IMG/VR virus record: IMGVR_UViG_2826849342_000003
From: a virus
Taxonomy: Duplodnaviria > Heunggongvirae > Uroviricota > Caudoviricetes
Direction: 5' to 3' (one strand)
DNA length: 17,599 nucleotides
Made by a program: the position numbers
Shown: positions 9,001 through 14,929 of the stretch, one piece after another
Position numbering within the stretch: position 1 is the first letter of the stretch
Layout of the letters: every line of letters starts with the position of its first letter

Positions 9001-12000
9001 TGATCACTGAAATGGCCTTCAATGGCGCCGGGGTTCGCGATACCGCCAGGACACTGAAAATTGGCATTAACACCGTCATCCGGACTTTAAAAAACTCATG
9101 CCAAAGCGAATAACGTCTTCGCCCGTTGCTCATGCTGATGTGGCGCTTATCTGCGAACTTGATGAGCAATGGAGTTTCGTTGGCAGTAAAGCCCGGCAAC
9201 ACTGGCTCTGGTACGCGTATAACACCAAAACAGGGGGGGTACTGGCCTACACTTTTGGTCCCCGTACCGATGAAACCTGCCGGGAACTACTGGCACTGCT
9301 TACGCCATTCAACATCGGCATGATCACCAGCGACGACTGGGGCAGCTATGGCCGGGAGGTGCCGAAGGATAAGCATCTGACCGGAAAAATATTCACCCAA
9401 CGGATTGAGCGCAATAACCTGACGCTGCGCACCCGCATTAAGCGCTTGGCTCGTAAAACAATCTGCTTCTCGCGTTCAGTAGAGATCCACGAAAAAGTCA
9501 TCGGGACGTTTATTGAAAAACACATGTTCTACTAATTGGAAGCATCACCCACTCTCGCGTACTCTGCTGCAATTTTTACCCGGGTGGTCGGGTCCAGTTG
9601 TAACAATTGCTCCTGTATCCAGTCCCGATCAGCATCGCTGTACTGATCGGGCATAACCGTTTTGATTTGCCTGTTCACTCACACCTCCGGTGCGCTGTGT
9701 GTCCAGGATTAATCATCGCCTCTTACGAACGCAGGGAACGGACGAACCTCTTCCGCCTCAACTGTGCCGTCATCAAAGGTTTTGACGTATATTTCTCGTC
9801 CGACGAGAAGCGCTTTACTGATTGCGCTCTGCGCCACGCCAAAGTCCTTAGCGGCTTTCTTCTGACCGAACCTGTATACGTAATCAGCCAGGGTCTCTTT
9901 TTTCATCGCCATAACTGACTCCTTCAAAATGCCTATATCATTACGCACAGTTATTAAAATGTCAGCACCGCAGATATTTCACTACATATAACCAAAGGTG
10001 ATATGGTATGAACATGAAAAAGAAACCGTTAACCCCTGAGCAACTGGAAGACGCCAAGCGTCTGAAAAGTATTTTTAACGCTAAAAAGAAAGAGTTAGGC
10101 CTGTCGCAGGAATCATTAGCCTATGAATTAGGTGTTACCCAAAGCGCTGTTAGTCAGCTAATGGCTGGCATCAACGCCATAAATGCCAGCCACGCAGCAC
10201 AGCTCGCTAAGATACTGAATGTAAAGGTCGGAGATTTCAGTCCCAGCCTGGCAAAATCTATTGCAGAAATGGCGCTCGCAATTGAAGAGCCATTAACTCG
10301 TGTCCCCGCTTACGAATATCCGTTACTCTCCTGCGTACAAGCTGGCGCATTCTCAATGGATGATATTTCGTACACCGCAAAAGATGCGATTAAATGGATC
10401 TCCACCACCACAAAAGCCAGTGACAGGTCGTTCTGGCTGGAGGTCAAGGGGCATTCAATGACCGCACCGCAGGGTGGTAAACCCAGCTTCCCTGAAGGTA
10501 TGCTGATACTCGTTGACCCTGAACGGGAAATCGAGGATGGCGATTTTTGCGTGGCCCGAATGAACGGCGATGAATTTACCTTCAAACGATTCATTCGTGA
10601 GAGCGGTAAAGCGTACCTGGAGCCGCTCAACCCACGATTCGACATGATTGAGTGTAACGAAAACTGCCAGTTTGTCGGAAAGGTCATCAAATCGCAGTGG
10701 AATGATGAGACTTTTGATTGAGCTCACAGAGTGATTTGACATCCTTCACGCCTGAAGAATGTGGAGGATGTCAAAAGCACGTTGGCATCATCATGCCACG
10801 TAAAGAGGATTAGTATGCTTCAAAAGCTAGACGTCGCAGACAGCGTGCGTCGCGAGCTGTCTCCCCGTACCGCGCGTAAACACAAAGCTGAGTTCGGCCA
10901 GTTCATGACGCCTTCTGGCGTGGCCCGTTTTATGGCCTCCTTGTTTCCACCGAGCACAATGAAAACTTGCCGTCTACTGGACGCAGGCGCTGGTGTAGGC
11001 GCACTGTCTTGCGCCTTCCTCGACCGTTGGCTGGTTGGCGAGTTTGGCTTTGAGTCTGTCGAGGCAACAGCCTACGAAATCGACAAAAAGCTGTGTGGTC
11101 ACCTTGCGAAGCACTTAACCGGGTACAGGAGAGTGACGCCCCGCATCATCGAAGGGGATTATATTGAGCTGGCAACCGCCGAAGGTCTACAGTATCGAGG
11201 TTATACCCATGCAATACTTAATCCGCCTTACAAGAAGATCAATAGCCAGTCAGCCCACCGGCAGGCTCTTCGCGCTGTCGGTATCGAGACGGTAAATCTG
11301 TATTCCGCCTTTGTTGCACTGGCTGTAGGTGAGGTTGCACCTGGCGGGCAGATAGTGGCCATAATCCCACGTAGTTTCTGCAACGGACCGTATTACCGTC
11401 CGTTCCGTAATTTCATACTTGAGCGGGCAGCAATCCGCCATATTCATTTGTTCGAATCACGTAGCAAAGCTTTCAGGGATGACGATGTGTTGCAGGAAAA
11501 TATTATCATCCGCCTGGAGCGTGGAGGCCGTCAGGAGGCTGTTACAGTCACAACTTCGACCGATGATAGCTTTTTTGACCTGGTCACCTACGAACACCCA
11601 TTTGACCAGATTGTGTACCCGGACGATTCGGAGCGGTTTATTCATGTGCCGACCACGCTCGAGAAAAGCGCCATTGAGTTATCATCCGCCGTACAATGTT
11701 CGCTGGCTGATATTGGCGTGAAGGTATCGACCGGACCGATAGTTGATTTCCGACTGAAAGCTCATTTGCGCAGCATGCCAGAAGAAGGAACTGTTCCGCT
11801 GATCTACCCGAGCCATTTGAGTATGAGTAGCACTGTCTGGCCTGTGGAAGGTTTGAAGAAACCCAACGCAATCATGCGCAACGACGAGACAGAAAAGTGG
11901 CTTTACCCGAACGGTTTTTATTGTGTGGTGCGTCGTTTCTCGTCGAAGGAGGAAAAGCGCCGAGTGGTGGCAAGCGTCGTTGATCCTGCTACCTTCAGTG

Positions 12001-14929
12001 AGTATTCAGTGTTGGGATTTGAAAATCACATGAACGTGTTTCATGAGAACAAACATGGGTTACCCGAGGCGCTGGCCCGTGGCTTGGCCGTGTTCCTGAA
12101 CACTACCGCAGTGGATAAGTATTTCCGTCGCTTCAACGGGCATACACAGGTCAATGCAACCGACCTCAAGATGATTAAGTACCCAAGCCGTGACACTCTG
12201 ATAGAGCTTGGCAAGTGGGCTATGCAACAAGAAACTCTCACGCAAGAACATATTGACGCTAAGCTAGGAGCTCTGACTGCATGAACAACCAAAATGATTA
12301 TATTGAGGCCGCTCAGCAAATTATAGCATCCTTAGGCCTGCCCAGAGCGCAGCAGAATGAGCGTTCTGCTTTGTGTTTGCTGGCACTCCTGAACCTCACG
12401 CCGGGAAAAGCATGGGCCGACGCGGAAAATCCGCTTGTGGGCATTACACCAATCATGAATTGGGTTCGGGAGCACTACGGCAAGGTCTACGCACCCAATA
12501 CTCGTGAGACATTCCGCCGCCAGTCTATGCATCAGTTCTGCGCTGCTGGAGTAGCCCTCTACAATCCGGACAAGCCCGATCGCCCAGTGAACAGCCCGAA
12601 GGCTGTTTATCAGATCGAACCTGCTGCTCTGTCCACGCTACGCACTTTCGGCAGCCCGGCATGGCACGATAGCCTTGCAACCTATTTAGCCGAGCGTGAA
12701 ACGCTGGTTACCCGCTATGCTAAGGAGCGCGAACAGAATCGTATCCCTGTTGAAATTGCTGCGGGCCAGCAAATAACCCTCAGTCCCGGCGAGCACAGCG
12801 AACTTATCCGTGCCATAATAGAGGACTTCGCCCCACGTTTTGCTCCGGGTAGCGTGCTGGTCTATGCTGGCGACACTGGCGAAAAGTGGGGCTACTTCGA
12901 CGCTCCACTGCTGGCCGGGCTAGGTGTTGATGTGGATTCACACGGTAAAATGCCAGATGTGGTGCTACATTTTACTGCGAAAAACTGGCTGCTGCTGGTT
13001 GAGTCTGTCACCAGTCATGGACCGGTTGATGGGAAGCGGCATGCTGAGCTTGCCAGGCTGTTTGCCGGATCAACAGCCGGACTTGTCTATGTGACCGCTT
13101 TTCCAAATCGCTCCATCATGGGACGATATCTTGGTGAAATCGCATGGGAAACAGAGGTATGGGTGGCTGATGCACCTTCTCATCTTATTCACTTCAACGG
13201 AGTGCGATTTCTTGGCCCCGACTCTACTGAATGAGTACAGGACCAGATAAATAGCCCGGCCCATGCGCCGGGTTTTTCTTTGCATATCCCCTCCTGTTAT
13301 CTGTCCCCTTAAAAAATAAATCACTTTAAAAATCAGTTAAGTAATAATTTTTCGCCATAAAAAGCACCGGCGGCATTTACATGAAAATCACCAAAAGTTA
13401 TATTTATTTCAAGCCAGAAACATCGCGCCCTTACACAGGGCTACATAAATCAGTCGTACGGCGCGACTTAACCCGCCGCAAAATGCTCTTTAACAACCTG
13501 GAGCTTTACAGTGTCAATGACCTGTTTAGACCCTTACACGTAAACGTGCTGTATCATCGGGTACGATCCGGTCGATGAGAGAGTATCCCCGCGCGAGAGC
13601 GAGAACGGCGTGAGAACGGGCAACACTGGCAGGAAGTTGGCGCTGACCAATACAGGGAATGTTTTGGGGTGTGGTGAAGGGTTCATGGACGGGAATATGT
13701 CGCACGTAAAGCGGCGAGGCCCGAGGGACTATTGCTGAAGATAAGTAGGCCGAATCGGGTCGAAATGGGTCTCCCACCTGCCACATCGCCAAAGCATTTC
13801 CGAGAAAGGACGGTATTGACTGCGTGTGATGTCGGGGCTATATTGGAAGAACACCTCATAAAACGGGTGTCGGGATTGCTACCCCGCTGACAATCGAGGC
13901 GATACAGACGCGCCAGCGTCTTTTTTTGTATCGACATACACGCACATCTTATCAATGGTGGGCTGTATGGGGCCGACTTCAGTCGGGCTGGTTCCCTTGA
14001 TTGCCAGTTGTAGCAACCCTGTACAGTCCACCGCCAGCGAGCTTGCTACCTCCTGCGGTGGTTACCAATCACCAATCACCAATCACCAATCACCAATCAC
14101 CAATCACCAATCAAGGAGGCTGCCATTATGGCTACTATCCCTGCCCTTTCTCAACCTGAAATCACCATTTCCAATGGCCGCGCTGTTACTACGTCCTTTG
14201 CCGTTGCCGAATATTTTTGCAAGCGACACGATAACGTATTACGTGCCATTGCAAATATTGAATGCTCAGCGAAATTTAACACCCTCAATTTTGAGGACGT
14301 TACCTACACCGACGCCAAAGGCGAACAACGCCCAATGTACCAAATCACCAAAAACGGATTCGTCTTCCTGGTGATGGGATTCACTGGTAAAAAAGCCGCT
14401 GCTTTCAAAGAAGCCTACATCGCTGAGTTCGATCGCATGGAAAAACAACTATGGGAACAAAAACAACTGGCCCTGTCTTCTCCTGCGATGAACATCAACT
14501 ACCCCCCTCGTGGTTCTCAGATAACCATCCCTACGCCACGATGAACTATGTTGATCGCAAGGTTATCAGCCTTGATGCTTCCGTGCTCTTCGATATGCCA
14601 AGCCCAACTATGCGCATCCTCAATGAGCTACACAGCAAAGGCTATAACGTTGACGCCGCTGTCGCCGAATTTAACGCCTTCAAGCATCTGACGGAAGAAA
14701 TGCGCCGTAAATTGCTGGACATTTCCCGCACATCGGAAAAATCTTCCCGCTTTGGTTTCAACGTAAATCTTTAATTAACCCCATCCCCGACCACATATCG
14801 GGGATTAAATTAAATATCTGGATTAATTAACCGGAGGATTTGTCATGCTCAAACCTCACTACGGAACCGCATTAGTTTCTCGCGAGGACGTTAAACCCGG
14901 CACAGCAATTCTTTACAATGAAGTGGTCA

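What the first reader, a model, noticed from the sequence alone, without database searches (positions are those of the whole stretch)
10008..13281. Type II R-M operon (N6-adenine methyltransferase plus BsuBI/PstI-family endonuclease) in the rexAB slot directly downstream of a lambdoid cI
The two genes follow cI on the same strand. Only 39 bp separate the cI stop from the maximal methyltransferase ORF and I see no terminator hairpin there; the first terminator is at 13255-13281. The methyltransferase stop and endonuclease start overlap (ATGA), so endonuclease translation is coupled to the methyltransferase. In lambda this position holds rexAB, which is expressed in lysogens from PRM/PRE. The arrangement therefore predicts a restriction system expressed from the lysogenic repressor transcript. 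The cI has an intact Ala-Gly/Ser/Lys autocleavage apparatus, so induction would switch off the shared transcript. A TTGACA hexamer at 10736-10741 could give some independent transcription, but its -10 is poor. BsuBI/PstI recognise CTGCAG; specificity here is unverified.
Basis: partly seen in the sequence, partly recalled or inferred. Interest (0 to 1): 0.75.

Follow-up and report, generated by a model that had tools for sequence, protein, structure and literature searches.

The report
Known PstI-type restriction system behind cI
This is a near-identical copy of EcoGIII, the restriction-modification system of Shiga-toxin phages that cuts and methylates CTGCAG, sitting just behind the phage repressor gene in a decayed prophage of Shigella dysenteriae; the genes are real and apparently intact, but both the system and its position are already described.

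Summary
The cI gene (10008-10721), an N6-adenine methyltransferase, a BsuBI/PstI-family endonuclease (12281-13234), the ATGA overlap and the terminator (13253-13281) are all present.

Two corrections are needed. The methyltransferase most likely starts at ATG 10815, not GTG 10761, so the gap after cI is 93 nt.

The pair differs by 4 and 2 residues from the EcoGIII system of the O104:H4 Stx2 phage. Papers citing Fang 2012 report that EcoGIII methylates and cuts CTGCAG and restricts lambda-like phages. The window itself is an IS-riddled prophage remnant in Shigella dysenteriae type 1.

Transcription from the cI promoter is plausible but unproven. Four things support it:
- The cassette carries only about 39 bp upstream of M, and that stretch is the tail of a resolvase gene.
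- No promoter consensus lies in the gap.
- Published lysogen RNA-seq gives M and R at roughly 0.35-0.75 of the cI level.
- An unrelated 65%-GC phage contig has cI-M-R with a gap of only 4-25 bp.

Candidate operators flank the block, so it does occupy the rexAB-equivalent slot, a known defence hotspot. Low novelty.

The parts
9709..9912 (-). cro (67 aa from ATG 9912), divergent from cI
   Evidence: Pfam Cro, E 4.8e-34. The protein is identical to PA2 Cro; the gene differs at 3 synonymous codons.
9913..10007 (.). cI/cro intergenic control region. It holds a PR-like promoter on the minus strand (CTGACA-17-AATGAT, 9965 to 9937) and two candidate operators, 9940-9954 and 9988-10002.
   Evidence: Promoter scan. 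The pattern ATMAC-N5-GTKAT with at most 1 mismatch gives 5 hits in the 17.6-kb window, and 4 of them lie in this region or in 13286-13401. The motif was derived from two of those sites, so only the other two are independent. The operators are inferred, not shown.
10008..10721 (+). cI repressor, 237 aa, with an HTH_3 N-terminal domain and an S24 autopeptidase C-terminal domain
   Evidence: Pfam. Ala112-Gly113, Ser150 and Lys193 are present. It differs from P13374 cI by 1 residue.
10735..10776 (+). Inverted repeat forming a hairpin (16-bp stem, 9-nt loop, -22 kcal/mol, no U tract). It belongs to the phage backbone and ends exactly where homology to the plasmid R-M cassettes begins.
   Evidence: The loop varies while the stem is kept; the SCU-104 version has a 19-bp stem at -32.9 kcal/mol. 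It is found only in this phage lineage.
10777..10813 (+). 3' remnant of a resolvase gene (reads KHVGIIMPRKED*), brought in with the cassette. It contains a small hairpin at 10783-10798 and the M ribosome-binding site.
   Evidence: Alignment with pG5A4Y413, where an intact 570-nt recombinase gene ends 9 nt before the M ATG.
10815..12284 (+). N6-adenine DNA methyltransferase, 489 aa, of the M.EcoGIII type. Motif I is LDAGAGVG and motif IV is NPPY.
   Evidence: Pfam Eco57I. PADLOC MTase_II E 1.8e-247 over the full length. It differs from P13374 M by 4 residues. Motifs were read from the translation.
12281..13234 (+). BsuBI/PstI-family type II restriction endonuclease, 317 aa, of the R.EcoGIII type. 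Its start overlaps the M stop (ATGA).
   Evidence: Pfam BsuBI_PstI_RE_N and BsuBI_PstI_RE. PADLOC REase_II E 1.4e-166. SdaI structure 2IXS, E 1.2e-76 over the full length. It differs from P13374 R by 2 residues.
13253..13281 (+). Intrinsic terminator closing the cI-M-R unit (8-bp GC-rich stem, -14.5 kcal/mol, U5CU3 tail)
   Evidence: A similar terminator follows R in RM13514 and in the unrelated contig L038.
13286..13404 (+). Candidate OL/PL-like region: operator-like sites at 13286-13300 and 13387-13401, and the promoter-like site TTTACA-17-TATATT at 13376-13404, pointing away from the R-M genes
   Evidence: Most of this segment (up to 13397) is non-homologous in the other immunity type (RM13514). 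RM13514 instead shares TAGTCTnGCTAT between its own cI/cro region and the equivalent promoter.

Best explanation
The window holds a copy of the EcoGIII restriction-modification system. The methyltransferase makes CTGC(m6A)G and the PstI/BsuBI-family endonuclease cuts unmodified CTGCAG.

The system lies inside the immunity region of an Oslovirus/Eru1-type Stx phage, between cI and the early-left promoter. This is the position that rexAB holds in lambda. Here the phage is a dead remnant in the Shigella dysenteriae type 1 chromosome.

The M-R cassette was captured from a plasmid-type resolvase-M-R unit without a promoter of its own. It is therefore most likely transcribed by read-through from the cI promoter. 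The transcript passes a U-less hairpin that may lower the level by about half or may mark an RNA processing or stability site. It ends at the terminator at 13253-13281.

M is translated first. R follows by coupling at the ATGA overlap.

The expected result is constitutive protection of the carrier cell against unmodified phage and plasmid DNA. A further consequence is addiction-type stabilisation of the cro-cI-M-R block while the rest of the prophage decays.

Shown here: gene identities, near-identity to the characterised system, cassette boundaries, anatomy, and conservation in S. dysenteriae.

Inferred: the single cI-M-R transcript, the role of the hairpin, the operators, and activity in S. 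dysenteriae.
For: Identity:
- Domains are as stated, with full-length PADLOC matches for both proteins.
- M differs by 4 and R by 2 residues from O104:H4 phage P13374.
- Papers citing Fang 2012 say EcoGIII methylates and cleaves CTGCAG and protects against lambda-like phages. They also report 98.8-100% CTGCAG methylation in STEC strains carrying these prophages and that the cloned system restricts conjugation.

Position:
- The block sits between cI and a promoter-like site, and candidate operators are confined to the two flanks.
- The second immunity type differs on both flanks and keeps the block from the cI C-terminal domain to R.

Co-transcription:
- Homology to plasmid cassettes starts about 39 bp before the M ATG, inside a resolvase remnant.
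- No promoter-like site lies in the gap.
- Neither hairpin has a U tract.
- In RNA-seq of phiO104 and phiPA8 lysogens, cI is 97-209 RPKM, M 49-113 and R 73-104. The M/cI ratio is 0.41-0.56 in all six libraries.
- IMG/VR contig L038 (65% GC; cI 29%, M 65% and R 74% identical) has the layout cro<- ->cI-M-R, with a cI-M gap of 4-25 bp, the ATGA overlap, then a terminator, then a promoter.

Retention:
- The 3.37-kb block 9913-13282 is 100% identical in 8 S. dysenteriae genomes, while the flanks vary in IS content and repeat number.
Against: - No transcript mapping was available, and RNA-seq per-gene counts cannot tell one transcript from two.
- The prophages in that data set show substantial background expression (cro 46-73 RPKM), so much of the signal may come from spontaneously induced cells.
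- A -22 kcal/mol hairpin sits between cI and M, and M and R are mostly well below the cI level. Partial termination with a separate weak promoter would fit as well.
- The TTGACA at 10736 could serve an unconventional promoter.
- The PRM-like promoter and the operators are not defined experimentally; Yin 2015 found none in this phage type.
- The S. dysenteriae copies carry substitutions at residues conserved in all other homologues examined (M D127Y and T154A; R Y314D). Activity in this host is therefore unverified, and no S. dysenteriae CTGCAG methylome was found in the library.
- Fang 2012 itself could not be read.
Confidence: 0.62

Rival explanations
1. The R-M genes are a separate transcription unit. 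The hairpin after cI stops or strongly attenuates the repressor transcript. M-R are then driven by their own weak promoter in the gap, for example one using TTGACA 10736-10741 with a non-consensus -10. On this view the position next to cI is only a tolerated insertion site.
For: A strong, conserved hairpin lies directly after cI. A perfect -35 hexamer is present. M and R RNA levels are mostly well below cI. R-M systems usually regulate themselves.
Against: No acceptable -10 lies at 15-18 bp from the hexamer: the best candidates, GAATGT and AATGTG, match 2 of 6, and the scan reports nothing there. The hexamer is explained as one arm of the stem. The hairpin has no U tract. The cassette brought no upstream regulatory DNA. 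L038 has no room for a promoter between cI and M. The M/cI ratio is steady across six libraries.
Confidence: 0.25
2. In this Shigella window the system is a decaying relic. The endonuclease, or both enzymes, have been inactivated by lineage-specific substitutions, leaving an orphan methyltransferase or nothing functional. The intact ORFs would then reflect only the short age of the S. dysenteriae type 1 lineage.
For: Everything around the block is degraded by IS elements. The S. dysenteriae copies differ at residues conserved in every other homologue compared (M D127Y and T154A; R Y314D). The ratio of non-synonymous to synonymous changes is about 1:1. No methylome evidence was found.
Against: All four ORFs (cro, cI, M, R) are full length and identical in 8 genomes, while the neighbouring rha, kil and helicase genes are broken. 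Losing M while R is active is lethal, which by itself predicts such retention. The motif I and NPPY residues of M, and the Asp and Glu of the R catalytic motif, are unchanged.
Confidence: 0.2

Closest known systems
EcoGIII (M.EcoGIII/R.EcoGIII) of the Stx2a phage of E. coli O104:H4 (phages P13374, phiO104, TL-2011c, PA2, PA8; genus Oslovirus)
   Same: Same genes, same order, same ATGA overlap, same cI and cro, same 93-nt spacer and same terminator. M is 485/489 and R 315/317 identical. DNA is about 99% identical over 4.1 kb.
   Different: Here the phage is a fixed, IS-disrupted remnant in Shigella dysenteriae type 1. M carries D127Y and T154A and R carries M119T and Y314D at otherwise conserved positions. 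Activity in this host was not tested.
Lambda rexA-rexB
   Same: Passenger defence genes on the cI strand, between cI and the early-left control region, closed by a terminator. In lambda they are expressed in lysogens from PRM/PRE (established knowledge). The cI-to-N interval is a recognised mosaic and defence hotspot (PMC8585504).
   Different: There is no sequence or mechanistic relation: restriction of unmodified DNA versus abortive infection. The phage has no N, cII or cIII genes and a non-lambda replication module. Co-transcription with cI is inferred here, not demonstrated.
PstI, BsuBI and SdaI enzymes
   Same: R has both BsuBI/PstI Pfam domains and aligns end to end with the SdaI structure 2IXS (E 1e-76). 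The Asp and Glu of the PD...ExK motif are conserved. M precedes R on the same strand, as I recall for BsuBI (from memory, not checked).
   Different: The position of the SdaI catalytic Lys251 is Thr here. P13374 R does not differ from the window at this position, so the reportedly active EcoGIII has Thr there too. The more distant viral-contig homologues (41-43% identical in R) have M on the opposite strand, which I recall is the PstI arrangement (the PstI comparison is from memory).
Plasmid-borne resolvase-M-R cassettes (e.g. pG5A4Y413, and Aeromonas, Pseudomonas and Serratia small plasmids)
   Same: About 84% DNA identity from roughly 39 bp before M to 8 bp after R. M is 84-87% and R 94% identical in protein, with the same ATGA overlap. 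In the resolvase-bearing plasmids M again starts directly behind an upstream gene, with a 9-nt gap.
   Different: The upstream gene is a serine recombinase rather than cI. The Aeromonas 9-kb plasmids have a 222-bp intergenic region before M.
BstA of Salmonella prophage BTP1
   Same: [quoted passage not shown]
   Different: BstA is an abortive-infection protein with a DNA self-immunity element, not an R-M pair.

Membership tests
Type II R-M, PstI/BsuBI isospecific group (EcoGIII) | The endonuclease has the BsuBI/PstI N-terminal HTH and C-terminal catalytic domains | tested here: met
   PF17728 E 3.3e-54 and PF06616 E 4.6e-61. SdaI 2IXS aligns to residues 8-313.
Type II R-M, PstI/BsuBI isospecific group (EcoGIII) | The partner is an N6-adenine methyltransferase with an AdoMet motif and the NPPY catalytic motif | tested here: met
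   Pfam Eco57I. PADLOC MTase_II E 1.8e-247. LDAGAGVG and NPPY were read in the translation.
Type II R-M, PstI/BsuBI isospecific group (EcoGIII) | Near-identity to a biochemically characterised member | tested here: met
   There are 4 (M) and 2 (R) amino-acid differences from O104:H4 phage P13374. EcoGIII activity is taken from papers citing Fang 2012; the primary paper is not held.
Type II R-M, PstI/BsuBI isospecific group (EcoGIII) | Recognition of CTGCAG, with m6A modification and cleavage, in this host | not testable with these tools
   This needs a methylome or an enzyme assay. No S. dysenteriae CTGCAG methylation report was found.
Type II R-M, PstI/BsuBI isospecific group (EcoGIII) | Intact PD-(D/E)XK catalytic residues | tested here: inconclusive
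   The equivalents of SdaI Asp233 and Glu248 are conserved, and the Lys251 position is Thr. P13374 R does not differ from the window here, so the reportedly active EcoGIII also has Thr.
Lambda-type immunity region with a rex-like passenger slot | Divergent cI (HTH plus S24 autopeptidase) and cro around a shared control region | tested here: met
   PR-like promoter found.
Lambda-type immunity region with a rex-like passenger slot | Passenger genes on the cI strand between cI and the early-left operator/promoter | tested here: met
   The order is cI, M, R, terminator, then a promoter-like site at 13376-13404 flanked by operator-like sites. The operators themselves are inferred.
Lambda-type immunity region with a rex-like passenger slot | Passenger genes co-transcribed with cI in lysogens | not testable with these tools
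   Indirect support only: no promoter in the gap, the cassette boundary, RNA-seq ratios and the L038 gap of 4-25 bp.
Lambdoid phage in the strict sense | N, cII and cIII regulators and O/P replication genes | tested here: not met
   Related intact phages carry a helicase/primase module and a Rha-family gene instead. The literature reports no cII or cIII homologues and classes them as the non-lambdoid Eru1 type. In the window isrK and C4 RNAs precede the Rha-family gene.
C-protein-controlled type II R-M | A small dedicated controller (C) gene with C-boxes upstream of R | tested here: not met
   No ORF lies between M and R because they overlap. The only HTH gene upstream is cI.

The most novel reading that the evidence does not exclude
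The phage repressor acts as the controller of the restriction system. The promoter-less M-R cassette depends on the cI promoter, so restriction is switched on only once lysogeny is established. M comes before R, and the U-less hairpin sets a level roughly half that of cI. Restriction is also tied to repressor integrity under SOS. As a by-product the R-M pair behaves as an addiction module. That module has kept the cro-cI-M-R block intact and invariant in Shigella dysenteriae type 1 while the rest of the prophage was destroyed. The same repressor-M-R solution arose independently in a 65%-GC phage (L038).
Probability: 0.3. Interest if true: 0.45.

Novelty: already known. Interest (0 to 1): 0.25.

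Why it matters
The system itself is documented. It changes the methylome of STEC strains and blocks incoming phage and plasmid DNA.

What remains open is how it is controlled. If M-R really rides on the cI transcript, restriction and CTGCAG methylation in O104:H4, in O157:H7 strains carrying PA2/PA8-type (PST2) Stx2a phages and in S. dysenteriae would follow repressor expression and SOS status.

The invariant survival of cro-cI-M-R in a wrecked prophage would then be a clear natural case of an R-M pair stabilising its neighbourhood. Both points can be tested with one RNA experiment and one methylome. They are refinements of known biology rather than a new kind of system.

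Tried and rejected
- **GTG 10761 as the M start.** Rejected in favour of ATG 10815.
- **The inverted repeat as a cI operator.** Rejected, because it is identical in RM13514, which has a different cI N-terminal domain and different control regions.
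- **The inverted repeat as a widespread repeat or terminator family.** Rejected, because it occurs only in this phage lineage, always at this place.
- **A phage with this cI and an empty site.** None was found. Every close cI relative carries M-R or a remnant of R.
- **Exact or near-exact shared words between the cI/cro region and the region after R.** The first search gave nothing convincing. A degenerate half-site pattern then gave the operator candidates. Two of its four flanking hits defined the pattern, so the support is limited.
- **CTGCAG avoidance or placement in control regions.** There is only one site in the window, at 16485, and none near the promoters. The numbers are too small to interpret.
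- **Fang et al. 2012.** The paper could not be opened by DOI or PMC id, so its content is cited second hand.
- **The ciprofloxacin RNA-seq paper.** It used EDL933, which lacks this system.
- **A minus-strand terminator-like site at 10798-10783 and a promoter-like site inside M (11479-11506).** Both are treated as chance matches. The scan's count of promoter-like sites is at the shuffle expectation.

Full report
**What is in the sequence**

The ORF map and the sequence confirm the gene layout.
- cro lies on the minus strand and ends at ATG 9912.
- cI is at 10008-10721.
- A long ORF runs 10761-12284.
- An overlapping ORF runs 12281-13234.

Pfam assigns the following:
- cI: HTH_3 plus Peptidase_S24.
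- The long ORF: the Eco57I-type methyltransferase domain.
- The last ORF: both BsuBI/PstI endonuclease domains (E 3e-54 and 5e-61).
- The divergent gene: Cro.

PADLOC type II methyltransferase and endonuclease profiles match both enzymes over their full length (E 1.8e-247 and 1.4e-166). R aligns end to end with the solved SdaI structure (E 1.2e-76). M has LDAGAGVG and NPPY. cI has Ala112-Gly113, Ser150 and Lys193. The ATGA overlap and the terminator at 13253-13274 with its T run are real.

**Corrections to the observation**

M most likely starts at ATG 10815, behind the ribosome-binding site AAAGAGGA.
- That start is annotated in PA2, P13374 and RefSeq.
- The PADLOC profile starts at residue 1 of that protein.
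- In plasmid homologues the DNA just upstream is the end of a different gene in another frame.

The gap after cI is therefore 93 nt, and it is not unstructured. Positions 10735-10776 form a 16-bp stem of -22 kcal/mol. A smaller hairpin follows at 10783-10798. The spacer folds better than all 200 shuffles (z -3.7). Neither hairpin has a U tract, so neither looks like an intrinsic terminator.

**Where the window comes from**

No complete E. coli genome covers more than 44% of the window. The exact M protein is encoded on Shigella dysenteriae chromosomes, including CP000034.1, which I recognise as strain Sd197. The surroundings there match the window.

The window is a prophage remnant:
- The helicase gene is truncated next to an IS600-type element.
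- An IS1 (about 8784-9549) sits in the gene next to cro.
- The Rha-family gene is frameshifted.
- The kil region is cut by another IS.
- Mu-like mom and an invertase gene lie further left.

Against this decay, the 3.37-kb stretch 9913-13282 (the cI/cro control region through the terminator) is 100% identical in eight S. dysenteriae genomes.

**What it is**

Positions 9550-14918 are 97-99% identical to Stx phages of the genus Oslovirus: PA2, PA8, VT2phi_272, TL-2011c, P13374 and Ss-VASD. Against the O104:H4 outbreak phage P13374, cI differs by 1 residue, M by 4 and R by 2.

Papers citing Fang et al. 2012 call this pair EcoGIII and report the following:
- It methylates and cleaves CTGCAG, affects the expression of many genes and protects against lambda-like phages.
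- CTGCAG is m6A-modified at 98.8-100% of sites in STEC strains carrying these prophages.
- The cloned system restricts conjugative transfer.

Yin et al. 2015 already noted the bsuBI-type R-M genes in the early regulatory region of these 'PST2' phages, and could find no operators and no cII or cIII homologues. These phages are classed as non-lambdoid Eru1-type Stx phages. I could not open Fang 2012 itself.

**Origin of the cassette**

Small broad-host-range plasmids of Aeromonas, Pseudomonas, Serratia, Citrobacter and E. coli carry the same M-R pair at about 84% DNA identity. Most of these matches run from window position 10775 to about 13242, and the alignment places the start of real homology at about 10777.

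In pG5A4Y413 a serine recombinase gene ends 9 nt before the M ATG. Window 10777-10813 is the recognisable 3' end of such a gene and reads KHVGIIMPRKED*. The phage therefore acquired M-R with only about 39 bp of upstream DNA, all of it coding remnant. In the resolvase-bearing plasmids too, the pair sits directly behind another gene.

The big hairpin belongs to the phage side of the junction.
- It is kept, with a different loop and a longer stem (19 bp, -32.9 kcal/mol), in SCU-104 and PhiR12_3. In those, M and the first two-thirds of R have been replaced by about 160 bp of unrelated DNA.
- It occurs nowhere else in the phage collection.

**Is this the rex slot?**

By position, yes. After the terminator comes an AT-rich stretch with the promoter-like site TTTACA-17-TATATT at 13376-13404, pointing away from the R-M genes.

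A 15-bp pseudo-palindrome, ATMAC-N5-GTKAT, occurs twice in the cI/cro intergenic region (9940-9954, overlapping the PR-like -10, and 9988-10002). It occurs twice around that promoter (13286-13300 and 13387-13401). Only one other hit lies in the whole window. Two of these sites defined the pattern, so only the other two count as independent support.

The O145 strain RM13514 has a different cro, a different control region and a different cI N-terminal domain. It is homologous from the middle of cI (10310) through M and R to 13253.
- It lacks the ATMAC motif at both control regions.
- Instead it shares TAGTCTnGCTAT between the -35 of its cI promoter and the -35 of the equivalent downstream promoter.

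So two immunity specificities differ on both sides of a conserved block running from the cI C-terminal domain through M and R. This is what is expected if the R-M genes lie inside the immunity region. [quoted passage not shown]

**How it is probably expressed**

Five points favour read-through from cI:
1. There is no promoter-like site in the gap.
2. The cassette has no regulatory DNA of its own.
3. The hairpins have no U tract.
4. In published RNA-seq of MG1655 lysogens of phiO104 and phiPA8, cI is 97-209 RPKM, M 49-113 and R 73-104. M/cI is 0.41-0.56 in all six libraries.
5. An unrelated IMG/VR contig (L038, 65% GC; cI 29%, M 65% and R 74% identical) has cro diverging from an S24 repressor. 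M follows after only 4-25 bp, with the same ATGA overlap, then a strong terminator, then a TTGACT-17-TATACT promoter.

Three points count against it:
1. Per-gene counts cannot prove a single transcript.
2. Background expression of the prophages in that data set is high.
3. A -22 kcal/mol hairpin together with lower M-R levels would also fit partial termination plus a weak second promoter.

I put read-through as the main route at about 0.6. Translational coupling of R to M at the ATGA is inferred from the overlap and from the poorly spaced GGAG before R.

**In this host**

Induction has no phage-cycle meaning here because the prophage cannot grow. The intact, invariant cro-cI-M-R block amid IS damage fits the addiction behaviour expected of an R-M pair, but it could also reflect a young lineage.

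The S. dysenteriae copies carry M D127Y and T154A and R M119T and Y314D. All but M119T fall at residues identical in every other homologue compared. Non-synonymous and synonymous changes are about equal. I found no S. dysenteriae CTGCAG methylome, so activity here is untested.

**Verdict**

The genes and their arrangement are real, and the family assignment is correct. The system is the already characterised EcoGIII. Its place next to cI and the idea of a defence slot behind the repressor are both published.

The only open element is the regulatory coupling to cI. My evidence makes that coupling more likely than not but does not prove it. Novelty: already known. Interest: 0.25.

Noticed in passing
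window 14070-14111: A heptamer tandem repeat, (CACCAAT)6, lies directly upstream of the ribosome-binding site of the Rha-family gene. The copy number is 3, 4, 5, 6, 6, 8, 10 and 12 in eight S. dysenteriae genomes. No run of two or more units occurs in the STEC phage loci compared. It is a hypervariable repeat between the C4-like RNA and the antirepressor-like gene.
   Followed up: partly
window 13816-14038: Rfam finds isrK (13851-13926, 61.8 bits) and a C4 antisense RNA (13951-14038, 76.4 bits), both above gathering score. They follow a promoter-like site at 13816-13844 and precede the Rha-family gene at 14128. This is a P1/Gifsy-type RNA-controlled antirepressor module next to the lambda-type cI/cro switch.
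   Followed up: partly
L038 2529-6150 (IMG/VR contig IMGVR_UViG_3300043425_000927): A 65%-GC viral contig has the same architecture. A YdaS/Cro-like gene diverges from an HTH plus S24 repressor. M follows 4-25 bp later, R overlaps M by ATGA, then comes a terminator and then a promoter. cI is only 29% identical, while M is 65% and R 74% identical.
   Followed up: partly
L004 6681-7730 (E. coli O145:H28 RM13514): In the second immunity type, a Panacea-domain gene and a following hypothetical gene are inserted after R. A terminator-like hairpin lies both before and after the insert. Further passenger genes therefore accumulate in the same slot.
   Followed up: partly
L003 4136-4340 and L007 (E. 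coli SCU-104, phage PhiR12_3): These variants have the same cI, but M and the first two-thirds of R are replaced by about 160 bp of unrelated DNA. The post-cI hairpin is kept in a more perfect form, with a 19-bp stem and a 4-nt loop. The left edge of the replacement coincides with the cassette boundary at window 10775/10776.
   Followed up: partly
window 8784-9549: An IS1 is inserted, with an 8-bp overlap of the flanking phage matches that looks like a target duplication, in the small gene just downstream of cro. Among the eight S. dysenteriae loci it is present only in L015 (CP024466.1) and absent from the other seven.
   Followed up: partly
window 10815-13234: The S. dysenteriae copies carry substitutions at residues identical in all other homologues compared: M D127Y and T154A, and R Y314D. 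R M119T falls at a variable position. This could mean altered or reduced activity.
   Followed up: no
window 13484-13700: This stretch has no convincing ORF and is 94% identical to an unannotated piece of the E. coli K-12 DH10B chromosome (1357919-1358135). It lies between the PL-like promoter and isrK, and its function is unknown.
   Followed up: no
window 4167-4372 (-) and 289-1811 (-): The sRNA STnc100 matches over its full length at 155.9 bits. Further left lie a Mom-family gene and a Gin-like invertase (resolvase plus HTH_7), which look like remains of a Mu-like element.
   Followed up: no
window 16485: The 17.6-kb window has only one CTGCAG site, against about 4.2 expected from base composition. 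None lies in the phage-derived control regions. The numbers are too small to call this avoidance.
   Followed up: no
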